Of a stretch of 34,199 nt of DNA, positions 8,700 to 28,663 are shown in pieces. Numbering within the stretch: the stretch's first letter is position 1; the number at the start of each line of letters is the position of its first letter. The translations under genes were made by a program, and so were the position numbers. The notes beneath the pieces are model-generated. The model had not been told where the DNA came from. It did not search any database and worked only from the letters and a program-made list of their open reading frames with translations. The stretch comes from a virus (taxonomy: Duplodnaviria; Caudoviricetes). Location of the stretch: positions 1 to 34,199 of the IMG/VR virus record IMGVR_UViG_3300032303_000855; one strand, 5' to 3'.

Positions 8700-8882
8700 A
8701 TGGCATACACAATCACATCGGAATACCTGGACTGTGAAAAGTCATTGGGTGATTCCATTACAGAAAAAGAATTGCTTGAAATGGGAGCAAACATTGACGC
8801 TCTGATTTCAGCAGGTCATATCAAAGATGAGACCACAACCAAATCAGCATCACCACGCCAAGAAGGAGAAATAAATGCCTAA
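8700..8882 (+). CDS. Small hypothetical protein
   Basis: RBS AAGGAG; NIDALISAGHIK motif of the kind seen in small genes preceding tail tubes. Confidence 0.7.
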   Translation: MAYTITSEYLDCEKSLGDSITEKELLEMGANIDALISAGHIKDETTTKSASPRQEGEINA

Positions 8883-9282
8883 AATCGTATTGACGGATGC
8901 GAAGGTAACCATCAACTCGGTGGTGCTTTCGGATCATATTTCTAGCATCACAATTGACACAAAAGAGGACATAATCGAGACAACAGGATTTGGTTCAACA
9001 GCCAAAACACGCGTTGCTGGTCTTGCAGATAATTCTGTGATGTTGGACTTCTTCCAAGATTATGCCGCAACAAATGTTGAAGCAACAATTTATCCTCTTA
9101 TCGGGTCAACCACAACAATTGTGGTTCAACCAGCATCAACTTCTGTAAGTACAACAAATCCAACATATACATTTACTGCTCTTGTCTCAGAATGGACTCC
9201 GCTCAAGGGTGGAATTGGACAACTAGCAACAGCATCAGTCACATGGCCAATCTCCGGATCAATCACAAAGGCGACCTCATAA
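8875..9282 (+). CDS. Tail tube (major tail) protein, copy 1
   Basis: ETTGFG...RVAGLADNS, DFFQD, NPTYT, ATASVTWP; position upstream of chaperone and tape measure. Confidence 0.85.
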   Translation: MPKIVLTDAKVTINSVVLSDHISSITIDTKEDIIETTGFGSTAKTRVAGLADNSVMLDFFQDYAATNVEATIYPLIGSTTTIVVQPASTSVSTTNPTYTFTALVSEWTPLKGGIGQLATASVTWPISGSITKATS

Positions 9283-9283
9283 C

Positions 9284-9691
9284 ATGGCAAAACTTGTTCT
9301 CACCAATCCTTCCATCACAATCGCAGGAACAGACCTCAGTGACCACATTTCAAGCGTCACACTTGATACAAAATATGACATCGTTGAGACCACAAGTTTT
9401 GGCGACACCGCGAAAAAGAGAGTTGCTGGTCTTGCAGATAATTCTGTGAGCATCGACTTCTTCCAGGATTTTGCATCGTCATCAGTTGAATCAATTATCT
9501 TTCCATTGCTCGGCACAGCCGCAGCAATTGTCATCAAGCCAGTTTCAACAACCACTACAACAACAAATCCGAGCTACACAGTCTCAGCACTTGTTTCAGA
9601 GTGGACTCCACTCAAGGGTGGAATTGGTCAACTAGCAACAGCATCAGTGACTTGGCCGGTATCCGGCGTCATCACTAAGGCGACTGCTTAA
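9284..9691 (+). CDS. Tail tube (major tail) protein, copy 2
   Basis: Same length as copy 1 (135 aa), ungapped; 92/135 identical by manual count. Confidence 0.85.
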   Translation: MAKLVLTNPSITIAGTDLSDHISSVTLDTKYDIVETTSFGDTAKKRVAGLADNSVSIDFFQDFASSSVESIIFPLLGTAAAIVIKPVSTTTTTTNPSYTVSALVSEWTPLKGGIGQLATASVTWPVSGVITKATA

Positions 9692-21147: not shown

Positions 21148-22008
21148 ATGAGAATCCTCATCACAGGCGACGCTGGCTTTGTTGGTCGCAACTTTAAGCG
21201 TCACCTAGAAGGCCACGACATTACCGGCGTGGATATAGTCAACGGCATCGATACTCGCGACTTCTTCCGCACTGATGACACCCATTTTGACCAAGTCATT
21301 CACCTGGCAGCAGTTGTCGGTGGGCGCAAGATGATTGAAGGCTCGCCACTTGCCCTGGCTGTCGATCTCGCCATCGATGCAGAAATGTTCGGTTGGGCGC
21401 TACGCACCAAGCCAAAGAACATCACCTATTTTTCCTCATCTGCTGCATATCCAACTTTCTTGCAAGCACCAGGAATGCCATCAATTCGTTTGGAAGAATC
21501 ATTTATTGATTTGTCATACATCCAAACACCTGATTTAACTTACGGATGGGCAAAGCTGACAGGGGAGATGTTGGCAGTTCACGCAAGAGCGCAAGGATTG
21601 AAAGTGCAAGTCTTTCGTCCATTCTCGGGTTACGGATCAGACCAGGCACTTGATTACCCATTTCCATCATTTATTGCTCGTGGCTTGAGTAAGGCAAATC
21701 CTTTTGAAATATGGGGCGATGGCACTCAAGTGCGCGATTTTATCCATATCGATGACATCGTCCAGGCGGTGCTTACGGCTTGGGAGACTGACATTGAGAC
21801 AGTCAACCTTGCTACCGGCAGACCGACATCCTTCAATGACTTGGCTCGCCTAGTGGCAGATGCTGTTGGCTATGCGCCAGCAGTGCGCCATTTAGAGGCA
21901 GAGCCGGTTGGCGTTGCCTACCGAGTAGGCGATGCCAAACTGATGAAAACCTTCTACACACCAAAGATTTCTTTGGAAGAAGGAATTCATTTGGCTCTCG
22001 CCAACTAG
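21148..22008 (+). CDS. NAD-dependent NDP-sugar epimerase/dehydratase (extended SDR)
   Basis: ILITGDAGFVG, IHLAA, FSSSAAY, YGWAK (YxxxK), GDGTQVRDFIHIDD. Start placed at ATG 21148. Confidence 0.93.
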   Translation: MRILITGDAGFVGRNFKRHLEGHDITGVDIVNGIDTRDFFRTDDTHFDQVIHLAAVVGGRKMIEGSPLALAVDLAIDAEMFGWALRTKPKNITYFSSSAAYPTFLQAPGMPSIRLEESFIDLSYIQTPDLTYGWAKLTGEMLAVHARAQGLKVQVFRPFSGYGSDQALDYPFPSFIARGLSKANPFEIWGDGTQVRDFIHIDDIVQAVLTAWETDIETVNLATGRPTSFNDLARLVADAVGYAPAVRHLEAEPVGVAYRVGDAKLMKTFYTPKISLEEGIHLALAN

Positions 22009-22041
22009 AGTCACACCTCGCCTGATTCGTTGGCGTTAATA

Positions 22042-22089
22042 GAAAAAACCCCCTGACCATCTGTGAAGATGCAATCAGGGGGTTTTTTC
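22042..22089. terminator. Bidirectional intrinsic terminator between converging operons
   Basis: GAAAAAACCCCCTGA ... TCAGGGGGTTTTTTC with inner CATCT-gtga-AGATG hairpin; A6 and T6 tails. Confidence 0.9.
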
Positions 22090-22102
22090 GCCTTGAAAGG
22101 GT

Positions 22103-22231
22103 CTATTCGAGCCATTCTAGGAGTAAATGAATAATGATGGCGCTGACGGATGTGTGTTCCTTTTTTGCCTTGGCTTGGACTTGCTTCCATAACTTGTCAG
22201 GGATGCGTACTGAACGCGCAGGGGTCTGCAT
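22103..22231 (-). CDS. 42-aa ribbon-helix-helix DNA-binding protein (not in ORF track)
   Basis: MQTPARSVRIPDKLWKQVQAKAKKEHTSVSAIIIHLLLEWLE has the Arc/CopG pattern; TAATG-coupled to the upstream gene. Confidence 0.8.
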   Translation of the reverse strand: MQTPARSVRIPDKLWKQVQAKAKKEHTSVSAIIIHLLLEWLE

Positions 22232-22386
22232 TATGCGCCTACCTTTGAGCGAGGAATAGTGCGATTTAATTCTTCCCAATCGGCTTTGAGCATTGCGCCA
22301 TCGTATTCATTGCAAGGAACGCAATGGGTGTTATTGGTCATCTGAGTGTCGCAATAGACACACATCCAAATCTCTTTGTCAGCCAT
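22231..22386 (-). CDS. 51-aa Zn-ribbon protein (not in ORF track)
   Basis: MADKEIWMCVYCDTQMTNNTHCVPCNEYDG...; CxxC-x9-CxxC; TAATG overlaps at both ends. Confidence 0.72.
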   Translation of the reverse strand: MADKEIWMCVYCDTQMTNNTHCVPCNEYDGAMLKADWEELNRTIPRSKVGA

Positions 22387-22778
22387 TATTTGCCCCCATA
22401 GGTAGGAACGAAGCCTTCTTGTGCTTCTTTGTAGAGTTGGGCAACAGTAATTGGATTGTTCGCAAACATCTCAACAAGGTCTGCCTTGGTTAAATTTACA
22501 GTCGCAAGTTCCTCTTCTTCAATTCCTAGAAAATCCAAATCAATTTTCTTGGAGATTGCCATTTGAAACATCGCAAGAAGGCAAACCACGCTCTCTTCAT
22601 CGTATTCCTCGGTGATGAAAGCCTTCGACACCTCATCGATATTTGTTTCTTGATTGATTTCAACCGCTTTATCAATCACAAGGTTTGAGACATAGGGAAG
22701 TGCGTGGGCAAAATTCCACATCCAACAATTGATGTTTTCGCCCATAATCTTCTTGAATTGTGCTTCTTTGTTGCTCAT
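22386..22778 (-). CDS. Acidic hypothetical protein
   Basis: ORF in the coupled leftward operon; ATG at 22778 overlaps the upstream stop. Confidence 0.72.
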   Translation of the reverse strand: MSNKEAQFKKIMGENINCWMWNFAHALPYVSNLVIDKAVEINQETNIDEVSKAFITEEYDEESVVCLLAMFQMAISKKIDLDFLGIEEEELATVNLTKADLVEMFANNPITVAQLYKEAQEGFVPTYGGK

Positions 22779-23168: not shown

Positions 23169-24077
23169 CTATTTTTGACCCGATTGCCAGTCAATGTCGC
23201 TCAGTAAGGCGCTCATAATCCTGGACTCCTCGCCATTGGATAGGTCGGCATATCGGGCTGTGACCACAGGGGAGGCGTGGCGCATCAGGCGCTGAGTCGT
23301 AATCAGATTGCCTCCTGAAGCTGCAAGGACACTGGTGGCAAAGAAATGCCTGGTCGAATGCAGACTGAGCCTGGATTCCGACCCTGACGAGCGTGTGGCG
23401 ATGCCTAGACGTCGCATCTCAAGATTGGCAAGGCGTGAGAGGTAGTTGGGTTCAACGGCATACAGGCGTCCCAAGACATTCTTCGACTGGATTAGTTCGA
23501 CCAATTTTGAATGACAGGGAATGAGCAGGTCTGTGTCTCCTTTGCCAAAGATGCGCAGGAAGTAGTTGCCATTGTGCTGCTCAAGCCAATCGCCTCTGAT
23601 TCGGCTCATCTCAATCGCTCGCAGCCCTGCCAGGCAGCCAAGCATGAACCACTCACGCATCGGTTCTCTTGCGGTCATCATCAGCATGGTTGCTTGTTCT
23701 CGACTGATAGGTCGAGGGGTATGTCTCGCAACCTTGACCTTGGGCAAACCTTCCTCGGGATGATGATCCAAGGGGATAATGCCAAGCATCCGCATTGTGT
23801 TAAATAAAGACTTGATTCGGGCTGTATAAGTCTCTCGTGAGGCTTGAGTCTTACCTTTGAGCACCTTGACTAGCAAATCTTGCAGAAAGACCTCTGAGGG
23901 GTGTTTGTGGCCACATATATCGCGAAGGATGGCAAAGTCATTCATATAGATTTCCCTTGACCAACCGGCATATTCATACCGAGCAGCCAAGAGCATTCCC
24001 ACATTCTCATGCCAGGGTTGCGTGAATTCAGGCAGCCTGATGAATATCTCAGGCATCAATGACTCTTCATCGAACAC
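23169..24077 (-). CDS. int: Tyrosine recombinase/integrase
   Basis: GLRAIE (R), GKG (K), LHSTRH (HxxR), MRHAS (H), TARY (Y). GTG at 24077 with AAGGAG preferred; the ORF is open up to 24257. Confidence 0.92.
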   Translation of the reverse strand: MFDEESLMPEIFIRLPEFTQPWHENVGMLLAARYEYAGWSREIYMNDFAILRDICGHKHPSEVFLQDLLVKVLKGKTQASRETYTARIKSLFNTMRMLGIIPLDHHPEEGLPKVKVARHTPRPISREQATMLMMTAREPMREWFMLGCLAGLRAIEMSRIRGDWLEQHNGNYFLRIFGKGDTDLLIPCHSKLVELIQSKNVLGRLYAVEPNYLSRLANLEMRRLGIATRSSGSESRLSLHSTRHFFATSVLAASGGNLITTQRLMRHASPVVTARYADLSNGEESRIMSALLSDIDWQSGQK

Positions 24078-24521
24078 CGCATCACGCTCCTTTGCGTAAC
24101 TTGTAGGCGCACCACCTCTCGGCGGAAGAGAGATATTAGTCACAACGTTAGGAATTTGTAAGGGGTCAATTTCAGGGGTGACCCTGGAGTTGAGGTTGAG
24201 ATATTCAAAATTATCTCGGCGAGTTGCTTGATTAGGAATGGGTAGTTCATTTAACATACGCGGAATCGATTCAGTAGTGGAGAACTACTAGATTGCGGAG
24301 AAATGCGCCTCAGAGCTTCCAAACTCTGATCCTGCTAGTCAATCAACATTTTGACATTTTGTGTCCGAATGTGGAAATTCTAGCAAATTGGACATTTCAG
24401 CAACCTGGTCGTTAACCACCCTACACCACAGGGGGCAAAGACATGGGGATTTTCCTACATTCTTTTGAGGATTCATTTCCCAATAAATCTGTGCGAATCG
24501 GTAATTCACTCAAATCATTCA

Positions 24522-24566
24522 ACTCCACCGACTTTGCCATGCCCCCATGTGCTCAGTCGGTGGAGT
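24522..24566 (+). promoter_or_regulatory. Stem-loop with C-rich apex upstream of the early rightward operon
   Basis: ACTCCACCGACT / AGTCGGTGGAGT 12-bp perfect stem; apex CATG-CCCC-CATG. Confidence 0.7.
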
Positions 24567-24587
24567 CATTTAAGGGGGCAAAAAATC

Positions 24588-24731
24588 ATGGGAATAATCA
24601 TCGCAGCGATAGTAGGAGTCTCGGCTGTTCTTCCGTTACTTCTCAAATTGGAGTCATGGCTTAACAAGGACGACGAGTTCCTTGAAGTAAAAGATTGGCA
24701 CAACTTCACCTCCGTCATGGAGAAGAAGTAA
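24588..24731 (+). CDS. 47-aa single-TM membrane protein
   Basis: ATG at 24588 after AAGGGGG; MGIIIAAIVGVSAVLPLLL then a charged tail. Confidence 0.7.
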   Translation: MGIIIAAIVGVSAVLPLLLKLESWLNKDDEFLEVKDWHNFTSVMEKK

Positions 24732-24974
24732 ATGGGCATCGATGTAGCACCTTTGACAGTTGCCTGGCTTTTGTTCATATTCAGCGCCTCCGCCTTTGGT
24801 TACCTCATCGGCGCTTACCGCGAATGGGATCGAGCCAACACCACGCGCAGCCAGCTTTTCCTCGAATTAGAGGATTCCTATCGCGAGGCAGACGAATTAC
24901 GCACCATCATCTTTGAATCCAACCTTGGCCGTTCCCAAGGTTTCAATCCTGCGCAAAGGCTGACCTCTATCTAA
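24732..24974 (+). CDS. Single-TM plus coiled-coil protein
   Basis: Hydrophobic N-terminus; abuts neighbours on both sides. Confidence 0.7.
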   Translation: MGIDVAPLTVAWLLFIFSASAFGYLIGAYREWDRANTTRSQLFLELEDSYREADELRTIIFESNLGRSQGFNPAQRLTSI

Positions 24975-25327
24975 TGAGCAAAGCCAAAGCGAAAGGCACT
25001 GCTGCCGAGAGCGCCCTGGTCAAATTCCTGTCGGGACAGGGGTTTCCCTATGCGGAACGACGGGCGCTCTCCGGCAGCAATGACATGGGAGACATCACTG
25101 GCACTCCATGCCTGGCATGGGAAGTCAAGAACCATAAGTCATACGCCATTCCTGCTTGGCTTAAAGAGACAGCAATTGAGAAGGACAACGCGGGTGCTGA
25201 CTTCGGCATTCTCGTAGCAAAGCCCAACGGCATCGGACTTTCACATGTCGGTGACTGGTGGGCAATCATGCGAGTGGCAGACATTGTTGATTTGCTCCGC
25301 GCCGCAGGTTACGGAGACCCTAAGTGA
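24974..25327 (+). CDS. Holliday junction resolvase (Hjc-like PD-(D/E)XK)
   Basis: KAKGTAAE, AERR, DMGDI, WEVKN. Confidence 0.85.
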   Translation: MSKAKAKGTAAESALVKFLSGQGFPYAERRALSGSNDMGDITGTPCLAWEVKNHKSYAIPAWLKETAIEKDNAGADFGILVAKPNGIGLSHVGDWWAIMRVADIVDLLRAAGYGDPK

Positions 25328-25728
25328 TCCTCCGTCGCGTCGTGGATTTTCCACGCTTTCCCTTTGCTAAATGTACAGGAGAGATTGCCGATTTCTTCTT
25401 TCCTGAAAGTAAAGCTGAATTGAAGGAATCGCTACCGATGCTGCAATCTATTTGCAAATCATGCGCTCACGAAAAAGAGTGTTTGCAATACGCACTCGAT
25501 AACGAAATCACACATGGTTTTTGGGGTGGAAAGACAAGTGAAGAACGCACCCTAATTGCAATCCATCATCCAAAAGAAAAGAAGAAAGAACCATCCCGAC
25601 TTGAAGAAGTCTTGCATTTGCAAGCGTCAGGTTGGTCTATTGAGGCAATTGCCAGGTCGTCAAGCGTATCGACAGCAGCGGTCAAACGACTGCTTGAGCG
25701 CGCTCGAAAGAAGGGTCACATTCAATGA
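25324..25728 (+). CDS. whiB: WhiB-family transcription factor with C-terminal HTH
   Basis: C...FFP...CKSC-x5-C, GFWGG, EER; then GWSIEAIA..SSVSTAAVKR. Confidence 0.88.
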   Translation: MILRRVVDFPRFPFAKCTGEIADFFFPESKAELKESLPMLQSICKSCAHEKECLQYALDNEITHGFWGGKTSEERTLIAIHHPKEKKKEPSRLEEVLHLQASGWSIEAIARSSSVSTAAVKRLLERARKKGHIQ

Positions 25729-27250: not shown

Positions 27251-27435
27251 GTCCGACATATTCCTATCGCTGCGGTCACTGTGGCTGGTCAATTGCTATC
27301 AATAAAAGCATTGCACAACGCGATGAAGCGCCCATGTGTGGCGATTGTTGTGTGCAGATGACCCGAGAAGTATCACAAGCAGTCGGATCATCGTTTAAGG
27401 GTCAGGGCTTTTATACAACGGATTCACGCCGATGA
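27247..27435 (+). CDS. FmdB-like Zn-ribbon protein
   Basis: MSPTYSYRCGHCG...PMCGDC...FKGQGFYTTD; ATGA overlaps at both ends. Confidence 0.85.
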   Translation: MSPTYSYRCGHCGWSIAINKSIAQRDEAPMCGDCCVQMTREVSQAVGSSFKGQGFYTTDSRR

Positions 27436-28157
27436 ACGCAGTCAGTCTCTTTGCAGGGGTAGGCGGATTTGACCTTGCCTTTGAACGCAACGGGATTGAC
27501 GTGATTGCAGCGGTTGAAATTGATGCACAGGCTCGTGGAGTTTTGAAACAGAATTTTCCAAAGACAAATTTGTTCGACGATGTCTGCAAAGTTACAGGGA
27601 AGGATTTACTAGATGCCGGATTCAAACCAAGTGAAGGAATCATTGCTGGCGGATTTCCTTGCCAAGATTTGTCAATTGCAGGGAAGCGAGCTGGACTCGA
27701 TGGTGCTCGCTCTGGACTCTTCTTTGAAATTGTTCGACTCCTCGATGAAACCAAAGCGAAGTATTTCATCCTCGAAAATGTCCCTGGCTTACTTAGTTCG
27801 CAATCAGGATCAGACATGGCAACTGTCATCAGCGCGTTGGATGACCTCGGGTATCACGTCGCGTGGCGAGTGCTTGATGCTCAATTCTTCGGAGTTCCCC
27901 AGCGACGCCGTCGAGTGTTCATTGTCGGATGTCTTGGAGACAACTGGTCAACACCTGCACAAATACTCGCTCTCAGCCAAGGCCGCGCAGGGCATCTTGC
28001 GAAGAGCAACGCGCAGGGAAAAGACGTTGCCGGAAACGCTAGAAAAAGCGTTACGCGAATGCGCGGCTGCGGAGAATACCAATTAGACCTCACAGCCCCC
28101 GAATTTCTTACAACGGATCAAACAGATGCAACTGACCTTGTGGTTCACAAAGAGTAA
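27432..28157 (+). CDS. C5-cytosine DNA methyltransferase, N-terminal part (motifs I-VIII)
   Basis: SLFAGVGG, GGFPCQ, ENVPG, PQRRRRVF; ends without motifs IX/X. Confidence 0.93.
   Translation: MNAVSLFAGVGGFDLAFERNGIDVIAAVEIDAQARGVLKQNFPKTNLFDDVCKVTGKDLLDAGFKPSEGIIAGGFPCQDLSIAGKRAGLDGARSGLFFEIVRLLDETKAKYFILENVPGLLSSQSGSDMATVISALDDLGYHVAWRVLDAQFFGVPQRRRRVFIVGCLGDNWSTPAQILALSQGRAGHLAKSNAQGKDVAGNARKSVTRMRGCGEYQLDLTAPEFLTTDQTDATDLVVHKE
27613..28086 (+). CDS. Nested +1-frame ORF, candidate methyltransferase small (beta-like) subunit; start uncertain
   Basis: 157 codons inside the MTase gene; C-terminal SEFPSDAVECSLSDVLE...KYSLSAKAAQGILRRA resembles overlapping MTase partner peptides. Confidence 0.62.
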   Translation: MPDSNQVKESLLADFLAKICQLQGSELDSMVLALDSSLKLFDSSMKPKRSISSSKMSLAYLVRNQDQTWQLSSARWMTSGITSRGECLMLNSSEFPSDAVECSLSDVLETTGQHLHKYSLSAKAAQGILRRATRREKTLPETLEKALRECAAAENTN

Positions 28158-28332
28158 GCGAGCACAGAATGTTGACGACAACGAGTCATGGAAGCGGGGG
28201 GGGGTAGTGCCAACTTTGAATGCGTTTGATATGGGTGACACACGAGCAACTGTTTTGATTCTTACCGAACCAATTTTGATGCGAGATCGAGAAGGAAAAG
28301 CGGGGGGGGGGCAAAGGATTGTTGATAAGTAA
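28126..28332 (+). CDS. Methyltransferase variable/target-recognition fragment, cut short at a G10 tract
   Basis: VVPTLNAFD and REGKAGGG motifs; joins the next ORF if one G is removed. Confidence 0.65.
   Translation: MQLTLWFTKSKRAQNVDDNESWKRGGVVPTLNAFDMGDTRATVLILTEPILMRDREGKAGGGQRIVDK
28302..28311 (+). repeat. G10 homopolymer (a second G9 tract lies at 28196-28204)
   Basis: Read directly from the sequence. Confidence 0.9.
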
Positions 28333-28663
28333 TAAGGCTTTCACTCTTTCCTCCGCAAATTTCCATGCTTTGTTTGAGCCTCAGAAAAAAGATGACACGC
28401 AAGGGACAGTCCGTCGCTTGACACCAACAGAGTGTGAGCGACTCCAAGGTTTTCCTGACGGATGGACTGCCGAACGCTTCGACGAAAAGAAGCAAGAAGT
28501 CGTCGCTCAAGCAGACTCAAACCGCTACAAGCAGATGGGAAATGCAGTTGCAGTGCCTGTCGTGGAATGGATTATCCAGCGCCTAGTCGCTGCAAACAAA
28601 GAATTGACATCACAAGATGACAATGCAACACCCCAACCAAAAACAGAAAGCAGGGAACGATGA
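28319..28663 (+). CDS. C5 methyltransferase C-terminal fragment (motifs IX-X)
   Basis: VRRLTPTECERLQGFPDGWT, RYKQMGNAVAVPV. Confidence 0.88.
   Translation: MLISNKAFTLSSANFHALFEPQKKDDTQGTVRRLTPTECERLQGFPDGWTAERFDEKKQEVVAQADSNRYKQMGNAVAVPVVEWIIQRLVAANKELTSQDDNATPQPKTESRER

What the first reader, a model, noticed from the sequence alone, without database searches (positions are those of the whole stretch)
24430..24593. Candidate RNA switch where a repressor is expected: a hairpin complementary to start regions on both sides
Seen: two similar initiation regions, AGGGGGCAAAGACATGGGG (24430-24448) and AGGGGGCAAAAAATCATGGG (24573-24592), flank a 12-bp stem (24522-24566). Its top strand has TGCCCCC (24540-24546), complementary to GGGGGCA in both RBSs; CCCCATGT (24543-24550), complementary to ACATGGGG at the first start; and CTTTGCC (24532-24538), complementary to GGCAAAG at 24434. 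The first start opens a 73-codon ORF through the hairpin; the second opens a 47-aa TM peptide heading the early operon. Known: P4 CI RNA and P1 C4 RNA act by pairing with targets upstream and downstream of themselves. Inferred: analogous RNA-based lysis/lysogeny control, or type I toxin-style SD sequestration. The pairings are only 7-8 bp.
Basis: partly seen in the sequence, partly recalled or inferred. Interest (0 to 1): 0.75.

Follow-up and report, generated by a model that had tools for sequence, protein, structure and literature searches.

The report
Phage RNA lock on early genes
In a group of actinobacteria-type phages that carry a recombinase but no recognisable classical repressor gene, a conserved hairpin with a C-rich tip sits between two ribosome-binding sites and likely keeps the early lytic genes untranslated unless a ribosome runs through it, which would be an RNA-only control where a repressor protein is normally found.

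Summary
The hairpin (24522-24566) is conserved in relatives whose recombinases are 44-86% identical. Its stems covary, its tip keeps GCCCCC, and the downstream ribosome-binding site keeps GGGGGCA (14 of 14 loci). A short upstream ORF with no conserved protein sequence stays open through the hairpin in 14 of 14 loci. Among 76 relatives, the element is in 11 of 12 with a divergent recombinase and 0 of 64 without. Two of its three pairings occur only in this genome. Best reading (0.5): a cis translational lock. The C-rich tip caps the start of the first early gene unless ribosomes on the upstream ORF melt it. A P4 CI/P1 C4-like trans-acting RNA is possible (0.2). Loop-to-site pairing shows no covariation, and neither transcription nor lysogeny is shown. 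No Rfam match. Verdict: new variant of a known kind, interest 0.62.

The parts
23169..24257 (-). Tyrosine recombinase, divergent from the early operon (possible later start at 24056)
   Evidence: PHROG integrase and PF00589; start conserved in the alignment
24348..24379 (.). Palindromic site with 8-bp spacer TGTGTCCG (24360-24367): candidate recombinase core site, overlapping a candidate rightward promoter (TTGACA 24351-24356, 17 nt, GAAATT 24374-24379)
   Evidence: Found in 12 of 13 hairpin loci and 7 of 9 hairpin-less recombinase loci; function inferred
24418..24423 (-). Candidate -10 element (TAGGGT) of a leftward promoter for the recombinase
   Evidence: TAnnnT at this place in 12 of 13 and 8 of 9 loci, with many variants; inferred promoter
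24416..24435 (+). Hairpin H1, predicted to cover the first Shine-Dalgarno site (SD1)
   Evidence: Opening cost 5 kcal/mol or more in 10 of 12 hairpin loci and 7 of 8 hairpin-less recombinase loci, against 14% of 118 control sites
24430..24437 (+). SD1, AGGGGGCA
   Evidence: G-run kept in 14 of 14 loci; the following bases vary
24443..24664 (+). Upstream ORF through the hairpin (73 codons here, 42-54 in relatives); no conserved protein
   Evidence: no Pfam or PHROG hit
24495..24508 (+). Conserved GAAT(T/C)GGTAnTTC motif upstream of the hairpin; role unexplained
   Evidence: Alignments
24522..24566 (+). Hairpin H2: 12-bp lower stem, internal loop, upper stem 24536-24541/24546-24552, CCCC tip 24542-24545
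24573..24580 (+). SD2, AGGGGGCA, the predicted partner of the loop TGCCCCC (24540-24546)
   Evidence: Invariant in 14 of 14 loci
24588..24731 (+). 47-aa peptide with a hydrophobic N-terminus and an (E/D)W(H/Q)NF motif; first early gene
   Evidence: no family hit
24732..25728 (+). Abutting or overlapping downstream genes (80-aa membrane-type protein, RusA-like resolvase, WhiB-HTH) that translational coupling would place under the same lock
   Evidence: Junctions TAAATG, TAATG, GTGA, ATGA; families

Best explanation
This is a conserved hairpin with a C-rich tip inside a short upstream ORF at the head of the phage's early operon, and it likely works as a cis translational lock: its GCCCCC tip is predicted to pair with the GGGGGCA ribosome-binding site of the first early gene unless ribosomes on the upstream ORF melt it. 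Steps: (1) Shown: H2 stems covary and the tip and SD2 are invariant. (2) Shown: the upstream ORF stays open through H2 and, in 13 of 14 loci, ends within -11 to +16 nt of the peptide start. (3) Predicted: SD1 is held in hairpin H1, so ribosome loading on the upstream ORF is the gate. (4) Inferred: with no loading, H2 folds and caps SD2, and the peptide gene and its coupled followers (80-aa protein, RusA, WhiB) stay off; with loading, H2 melts and ribosomes restart on the peptide. (5) Inferred: this second lock tightens silencing of lytic genes in a quiescent (integrated or plasmid-like) state of a phage with no recognisable repressor. The signal that opens H1 is not identified; a change of the transcript's 5' end is my best guess.
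For: Covariation: 8 of 16 pairs change on both sides, 98% of cells pair, 0 of 500 shuffles match, in 7 aligned relatives; further compensatory changes across 11 loci. A model built without this genome finds it at 46 bits. SD2 is GGGGGCA in 11 of 11 loci chosen by recombinase alone and 14 of 14 overall, while CA follows G5 at only 6 of 60 other start sites and the peptide's SD varies freely in hairpin-less relatives. Opening the tip costs 3.2-3.8 kcal/mol against a duplex of about -16; net -6.3 to -11.2 for SD2 before any pseudoknot penalty. The start-bearing frame is open in 14 of 14 loci, other frames in 7 of 28, and all three frames across the loop are used. The element is in 11 of 12 loci with a divergent recombinase and 0 of 64 (30 clusters) without. 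A distant lineage (L296) has a flipped closing pair yet keeps 7 bp to both sites; 136 of 100000 shuffles give such a loop. C-rich loops repress G-rich RBSs without chaperones in mycobacteria (PMC6486639, passages).
Against: The 7 loop-SD2 pairs never vary, so there is no covariation proof. G5 is a common SD in these phages. The pseudoknot was not modelled, and a 7-nt linker across a 12-bp stem is tight. In this genome the upstream ORF overshoots the peptide start by 77 nt, which suits coupling less well. Both strands fold about equally; strand evidence is 7 G-U against 4 A-C cells. The 14 loci are about 6-7 lineages, and in 3 of them I took the longer of two starts. Seven recombinase-bearing relatives lack H2. 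L296 is missed by the covariance model. The rightward promoter is only a candidate, and lysogeny is not shown.
Confidence: 0.5

Rival explanations
1. H2 is released as a stable small RNA that binds SD1 and SD2 of new transcripts in trans, blocks upstream-ORF translation and so makes more of itself: a self-sustaining immunity RNA like P4 CI or P1 C4.
For: Complement to SD1 is 6-8 nt in 13 of 14 loci, and L296 keeps 7 bp to both sites. The layout of target, RNA, target, small membrane peptide matches P4 seqA-CI-seqC (PMC4825925, passages). In L004, L005, L007 and L011 the recombinase is the only leftward gene, so there is no room for a repressor there.
Against: SD1 is already paired in H1; net binding is -7.3 to +3.5 kcal/mol and unfavourable in 4 of 13 loci. 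L006 has only 5 bp. There is no second conserved pairing patch and no conserved terminator to release the RNA.
Confidence: 0.2
2. H2 is an attenuator-type terminator that ribosomes on the upstream ORF override; the loop match to the SD is secondary.
For: The stem is strong and GC-rich, with pyrimidine tails of 5-6 T in 8 nt in the L005 group; the upstream ORF always crosses it.
Against: The tail has 3 T in 8 here and 1 in 8 in L296; the terminator scan found none; this does not explain the invariant GCCCCC tip and GGGGGCA.
Confidence: 0.12
3. Silencing is done at DNA level: recombination in the palindromic site splits a promoter that overlaps it, and H2 is only a stabiliser, a protein-binding site or fine tuning.
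For: TTGACA-17-GAAATT spans the palindrome here, and the site is kept in hairpin-less relatives. Recombination-based switches exist in mycobacteriophages (PMC3694055, passages); cluster N phage integrases are among the top cultured hits at about 27%.
Against: The -35/-10 matches are poor in several relatives. It does not explain the open upstream ORF or the loop-SD match. It is compatible with the best explanation as an added layer.
Confidence: 0.1
4. The G5 and C5 motifs are DNA operator or arm-type sites and the hairpin is incidental.
For: The motifs flank a recombinase core-like site; a further TGGGGGCA lies near the recombinase start in L009 and L010.
Against: Stem sequences change while pairing is kept, including G-U pairs; both G5 motifs sit at SD distance from starts in 14 of 14 loci.
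Confidence: 0.04
5. Type I toxin-antitoxin module with the 47-aa peptide as toxin.
For: A small hydrophobic peptide lies behind a sequesterable SD.
Against: A peptide motif lies upstream of RusA in 31 of 64 loci without a divergent recombinase, none with the element; there it follows a plain promoter. No convergent antitoxin was identified.
Confidence: 0.04

Closest known systems
Phage P4 immunity (seqA - CI RNA - seqC)
   Same: A structured RNA lies inside the transcript it controls, with complementary sites upstream and downstream, at the head of replication genes (PMC4825925, passages).
   Different: No sequence or Rfam match. Targets here are the two SD sites, there is a single 6-8-nt patch, SD1 has its own hairpin, and neither processing nor termination is shown. 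The host group appears actinobacterial.
Phage P1/P7 C4 antisense RNA (Rfam RF01695)
   Same: A small RNA pairs with its own operon's mRNA ahead of small regulatory genes (10.64898/2025.12.28.696737, passages; short two-patch pairing at the icd RBS is recalled).
   Different: No Rfam hit. C4 controls an antirepressor beside a protein repressor C1; here no repressor or antirepressor was found.
Gifsy-1 IsrK - orf45 - anrP
   Same: Translation of an upstream ORF is needed for a downstream phage gene by translational coupling (PMC4825925, passages).
   Different: IsrK activates in trans; here the conserved C-rich tip is predicted to inhibit, and the upstream ORF has no conserved protein.
Actinobacterial 6C sRNA
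   Same: C-rich hairpin loops pair with G-rich RBSs such as AGGGGGG without chaperones (PMC6486639, passages).
   Different: 6C is a free-standing host sRNA with two C-rich loops; this is one C4 tip inside a phage mRNA leader, with no Rfam match.
Integration-dependent immunity of mycobacteriophages
   Same: A simple tyrosine integrase faces away from the lytic operon across a short control region (PMC3694055, passages).
   Different: Those systems have a repressor gene containing attP; no such gene lies between the recombinase and the early operon here.

Membership tests
P4 CI / P1 C4 antisense immunity RNAs | Match to the family covariance models | tested here: not met
   0 Rfam hits at gathering in the window and 6 loci; only sub-threshold chance hits at E up to 10
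P4 CI / P1 C4 antisense immunity RNAs | Complementary targets upstream and downstream in the same transcript | tested here: met
   Downstream 7-10 nt in 14 of 14 loci; upstream 6-8 nt in 13 of 14
P4 CI / P1 C4 antisense immunity RNAs | Two separate pairing patches per target (recalled) | tested here: not met
   Second patches at SD1 only in this genome; GGCAAA at SD2 in 4 of 14 loci
P4 CI / P1 C4 antisense immunity RNAs | Stable processed small RNA acting in trans | not testable with these tools
   Needs RNA data
Upstream-ORF-gated SD sequestration (translational coupling) | Open ORF with its own SD crossing the inhibitory structure and ending near the next start | tested here: met
   Open in 14 of 14 loci; ends -11 to +16 nt in 13 of 14, +77 here
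Upstream-ORF-gated SD sequestration (translational coupling) | Structure pairs with the downstream SD | tested here: inconclusive
   Invariant complement and favourable energy, but no covariation
Upstream-ORF-gated SD sequestration (translational coupling) | Downstream translation depends on upstream translation | not testable with these tools
   Needs a reporter
6C sRNA | Rfam model match and two C-rich stem-loops | tested here: not met
   No hit; one C4 tip
Type I toxin-antitoxin | Toxin gene tied to a repressing RNA | tested here: not met
   Peptide motif in 31 of 64 loci without the element
Type I toxin-antitoxin | Peptide is toxic to the host | not testable with these tools
   No family hit
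Intrinsic terminator / attenuator | U-tract after the stem | tested here: inconclusive
   1-6 T in 8 nt; 3 here; scan found none
Integration-dependent immunity | attP inside a repressor gene next to int | tested here: not met
   No repressor ORF between the recombinase and the early operon

The most novel reading that the evidence does not exclude
These phages run lysogeny with no repressor protein. Recombination at the palindromic site splits the early promoter, and a self-sustaining RNA circuit keeps the early operon off and gives superinfection immunity: H1 gates the upstream ORF, and the H2 C-loop caps both ribosome-binding sites in cis and in trans. The circuit occurs with two separate recombinase lineages.
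Probability: 0.17. Interest if true: 0.87.

Novelty: new variant of a known kind. Interest (0 to 1): 0.62.

Why it matters
RNA-based phage immunity is known from a few proteobacterial phages (P4, P1). A covarying RNA motif that occurs only with a divergent recombinase, in uncultured actinophage-like genomes with no recognisable repressor, gives a compact and testable candidate for how such phages stay silent. It fits in about 250 nt and can be tested in laboratory actinobacteria. It would also extend the C-loop/G-rich-RBS principle of the 6C sRNA to a cis switch.

Tried and rejected
Rfam: no hit. A stem-sequence pattern scan gave 120 loci, of which 1 was a true relative. A loop-plus-SD scan gave 120 loci, mostly chance, and one new lineage. 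A flipped-loop scan gave 12 loci and only the 2 known contigs. The first MAFFT alignment was out of register, so its RNAalifold result was not used; covariation was counted on 7 well-registered rows and checked by script on 11. A third perfect target, TGGGGGCA at 22391-22398 (-), is not kept in L002: rejected. An 11-nt inverted match inside the recombinase gene was treated as chance. A minus-strand ORF from the loop is not conserved (read). An amino-acid or TTA attenuation peptide was rejected: TTA 0-3 and Trp 0-2 codons, none conserved. The RHH gene (22103-22279) as universal repressor was rejected: absent in L004, L005, L007 and L011. No RNA holder was listed. Two DNA runs of one study showed no integration or inversion joint. 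No close recombinase was found in genome contigs or in 301 genomes searched; without a positive control this shows nothing about lysogeny. Atlas hits for the peptide were 0.81, which is chance level. Three look-ups of earlier findings returned nothing. The first tree lost 7 rows to a parsing fault and was replaced.

Full report
CONTEXT. The window is a 34,199-bp virus record. It has siphovirus-type head genes, lysis genes, a leftward tyrosine recombinase (23169-24257), and a rightward operon with a RusA-like resolvase, WhiB, an exonuclease and a primase-polymerase (52 ORFs scanned). WhiB and the cultured hits to actinophages point to an actinobacterial host; this is inference. No cI-like repressor was found among the 52 ORFs; a small RHH gene lies at 22103-22279.

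OBSERVATION. Every string and coordinate is confirmed. The hairpin has z -7.9. Its top folds further, leaving a CCCC tip. Matches of 7 nt or more to the hairpin occur in 5.6% of random windows, so relatives were needed.

RELATIVES. The recombinase found 10 loci at 63-86% identity. In the first 11 sequences, chosen by recombinase alone, TGCCCCCA and the downstream GGGGGCA are invariant while the neighbouring bases drift. In 7 well-aligned relatives, 8 of 16 pairs change on both sides and 0 of 500 shuffles reach that (shuffles ignore relatedness). A script shows further compensatory series across 11 loci. A covariance model built without this genome finds it at 46 bits; across 89 sources its 10 strong hits are all members. 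It misses L296. L296 was found through its SD sites: its recombinase is about 44% identical, the gene order is the same, and its hairpin has the closing pair flipped (AG-CCCC-CT) but keeps 7 bp to both sites. Later scripts required GGGGGCA or GGGGGC at SD2, so the unbiased count for SD2 is the 11 of 11.

UPSTREAM ORF. The frame that carries the start after SD1 is open through the hairpin in 14 of 14 loci, against 7 of 28 other frames. All three frames across the loop are used and the peptides are dissimilar. In 3 loci I took the longer of two starts. The stop lies -11 to +16 nt from the peptide start in 13 of 14 loci; this genome overshoots by 77 nt. Translation through the hairpin, not the product, appears to be selected (inference; about 6-7 lineages).

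WHICH PAIRING. Loop to SD2: 7-10 nt in 14 of 14 loci, but the 7 core pairs never vary. CA follows G5 at 6 of 60 other start sites (82 sites, less 22 that belong to the element). Opening the tip costs 3.2-3.8 kcal/mol; net binding is -6.3 to -11.2 for SD2, without a pseudoknot penalty, and -7.3 to +3.5 for SD1 (13 loci).

HAIRPIN H1. SD1 is itself predicted to be paired with a C-rich stretch just upstream. The opening cost is 5 kcal/mol or more in 10 of 12 hairpin loci and 7 of 8 hairpin-less recombinase loci, against 14% of 118 control starts. SD positions in the second set were chosen by eye, and the loci are related, so the p-values are inflated. In hairpin-less loci the SD and its partner change together (CCTC/GAGG; CTCTA/TAGAG to CTGTA/TACAG; GTTATCTC/GAGATAAC). 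H1 therefore looks like the older gate, and the upstream ORF plus H2 like an added second lock.

DISTRIBUTION. Of 80 loci anchored on RusA (the best 80 of 244 matches), 76 had enough upstream DNA. The element is in 11 of 12 with a divergent recombinase and 0 of 64 (30 clusters) without. Eight of the latter that I read have a plain promoter leading to the first gene. In a 22-row recombinase tree, 9 hairpin loci form one clade, L296 falls elsewhere on a long branch (one clade rejected, p-AU 0.0009), and 7 divergent-recombinase rows lack H2. H2 thus goes with the recombinase layout but is not needed for it.

OTHER CONSERVED DNA. A leftward TAnnnT lies just left of SD1 in 12 of 13 and 8 of 9 loci, and a palindrome with an 8-bp spacer lies about 70 nt left of SD1 in 12 of 13 and 7 of 9, with the spacer reversed in L259 and L260. 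The spacer contains GACAC, the WhiA motif, which can lie on either strand (PMC10243135, passages). Promoter and recombination roles are inferred.

MECHANISM. Best (0.5): H1 gates ribosome loading on the upstream ORF. Without loading, H2 folds and its tip caps SD2, silencing the peptide and the abutting genes behind it (junctions). With loading, H2 melts. Rivals: trans-acting immunity RNA (0.2), attenuator (0.12), DNA-level promoter splitting with an accessory hairpin (0.1), DNA sites (0.04), type I toxin-antitoxin (0.04). Against the best reading: no loop-SD covariation, an unmodelled and tight pseudoknot, near-equal folding of both strands (7 G-U against 4 A-C cells), the overshooting ORF here, and no demonstration of transcription or lysogeny.

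KNOWN SYSTEMS. It works like a mix of IsrK-orf45 coupling and P4 CI target layout (PMC4825925, passages) with 6C-type C-loop pairing (PMC6486639, passages). It is not a member of these families: no Rfam hit and no second pairing patch. I saw table passages of PMC2864571, passages of PMC3694055 and of 10.64898/2025.12.28.696737; other papers only as search listings. Details of C4 two-patch pairing are recalled. Nine searches listed nothing describing this element. The library is partial, and supplements of large RNA-motif screens, which I did not see, may contain it.

VERDICT. A real, apparently undescribed, covarying RNA element; new variant of a known kind; interest 0.62.

Noticed in passing
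window 21999-22036 (+); L389:3473, L438:2954, L463:3453: A second conserved hairpin with a CCUCGC(C) loop and varying stems lies right after the last late gene and before the terminator, here and in 23 of 64 loci without a divergent recombinase. No Rfam hit.
   Followed up: partly
window 22042-22097: Strong terminator-like hairpin with A and T tracts on both sides, between the late operon and the leftward operon.
   Followed up: partly
window 24348-24379; L259, L260: Palindrome with an 8-bp spacer beside the recombinase; the spacer is reversed in L259 and L260, and in L264 and L266 the genes after the recombinase run on its own strand, hinting at inversions or a resolvase role.
   Followed up: partly
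L389:3560-3620, L452:3230-3290, L463:3530-3590: Early promoters of recombinase-less relatives have GACAC(G) about 25-32 nt upstream of the -35 box; RACACRC occurs within 2 kb upstream of RusA in 58 of 64 loci (not tested against chance). Possible WhiA/WhiB control.
   Followed up: partly
L389, L412, L452, L463, just after the candidate early promoter: A short hairpin with loop ACAAGGA recurs at the predicted 5' end of the early transcript; it resembles a CsrA-type site (recalled).
   Followed up: no
L259 and L260, first ORF after the first SD: The first ORF looks like a soluble paralog of the membrane peptide (HGRxxD...W motif), suggesting the upstream ORF and twin start regions arose by gene duplication.
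   Followed up: no
window 24270-24292: Small hairpin with a GGAGA loop ahead of the recombinase start; L009 and L010 have TGGGGGCA in a hairpin at the same place.
   Followed up: no
window 8875-9282 and 9284-9691: Two adjacent 135-aa genes both match the same major tail protein family.
   Followed up: no
window 27432-28663: DNA methyltransferase homology is spread over two ORFs (27432-28157 and 28319-28663) with a long G-run near 28196-28204 and 28302-28311 between them.
   Followed up: no
L297-L357: Many related phages carry a distant tyrosine recombinase (36-39% to the query) among tail-region genes, with no early operon beside it in those I read.
   Followed up: no
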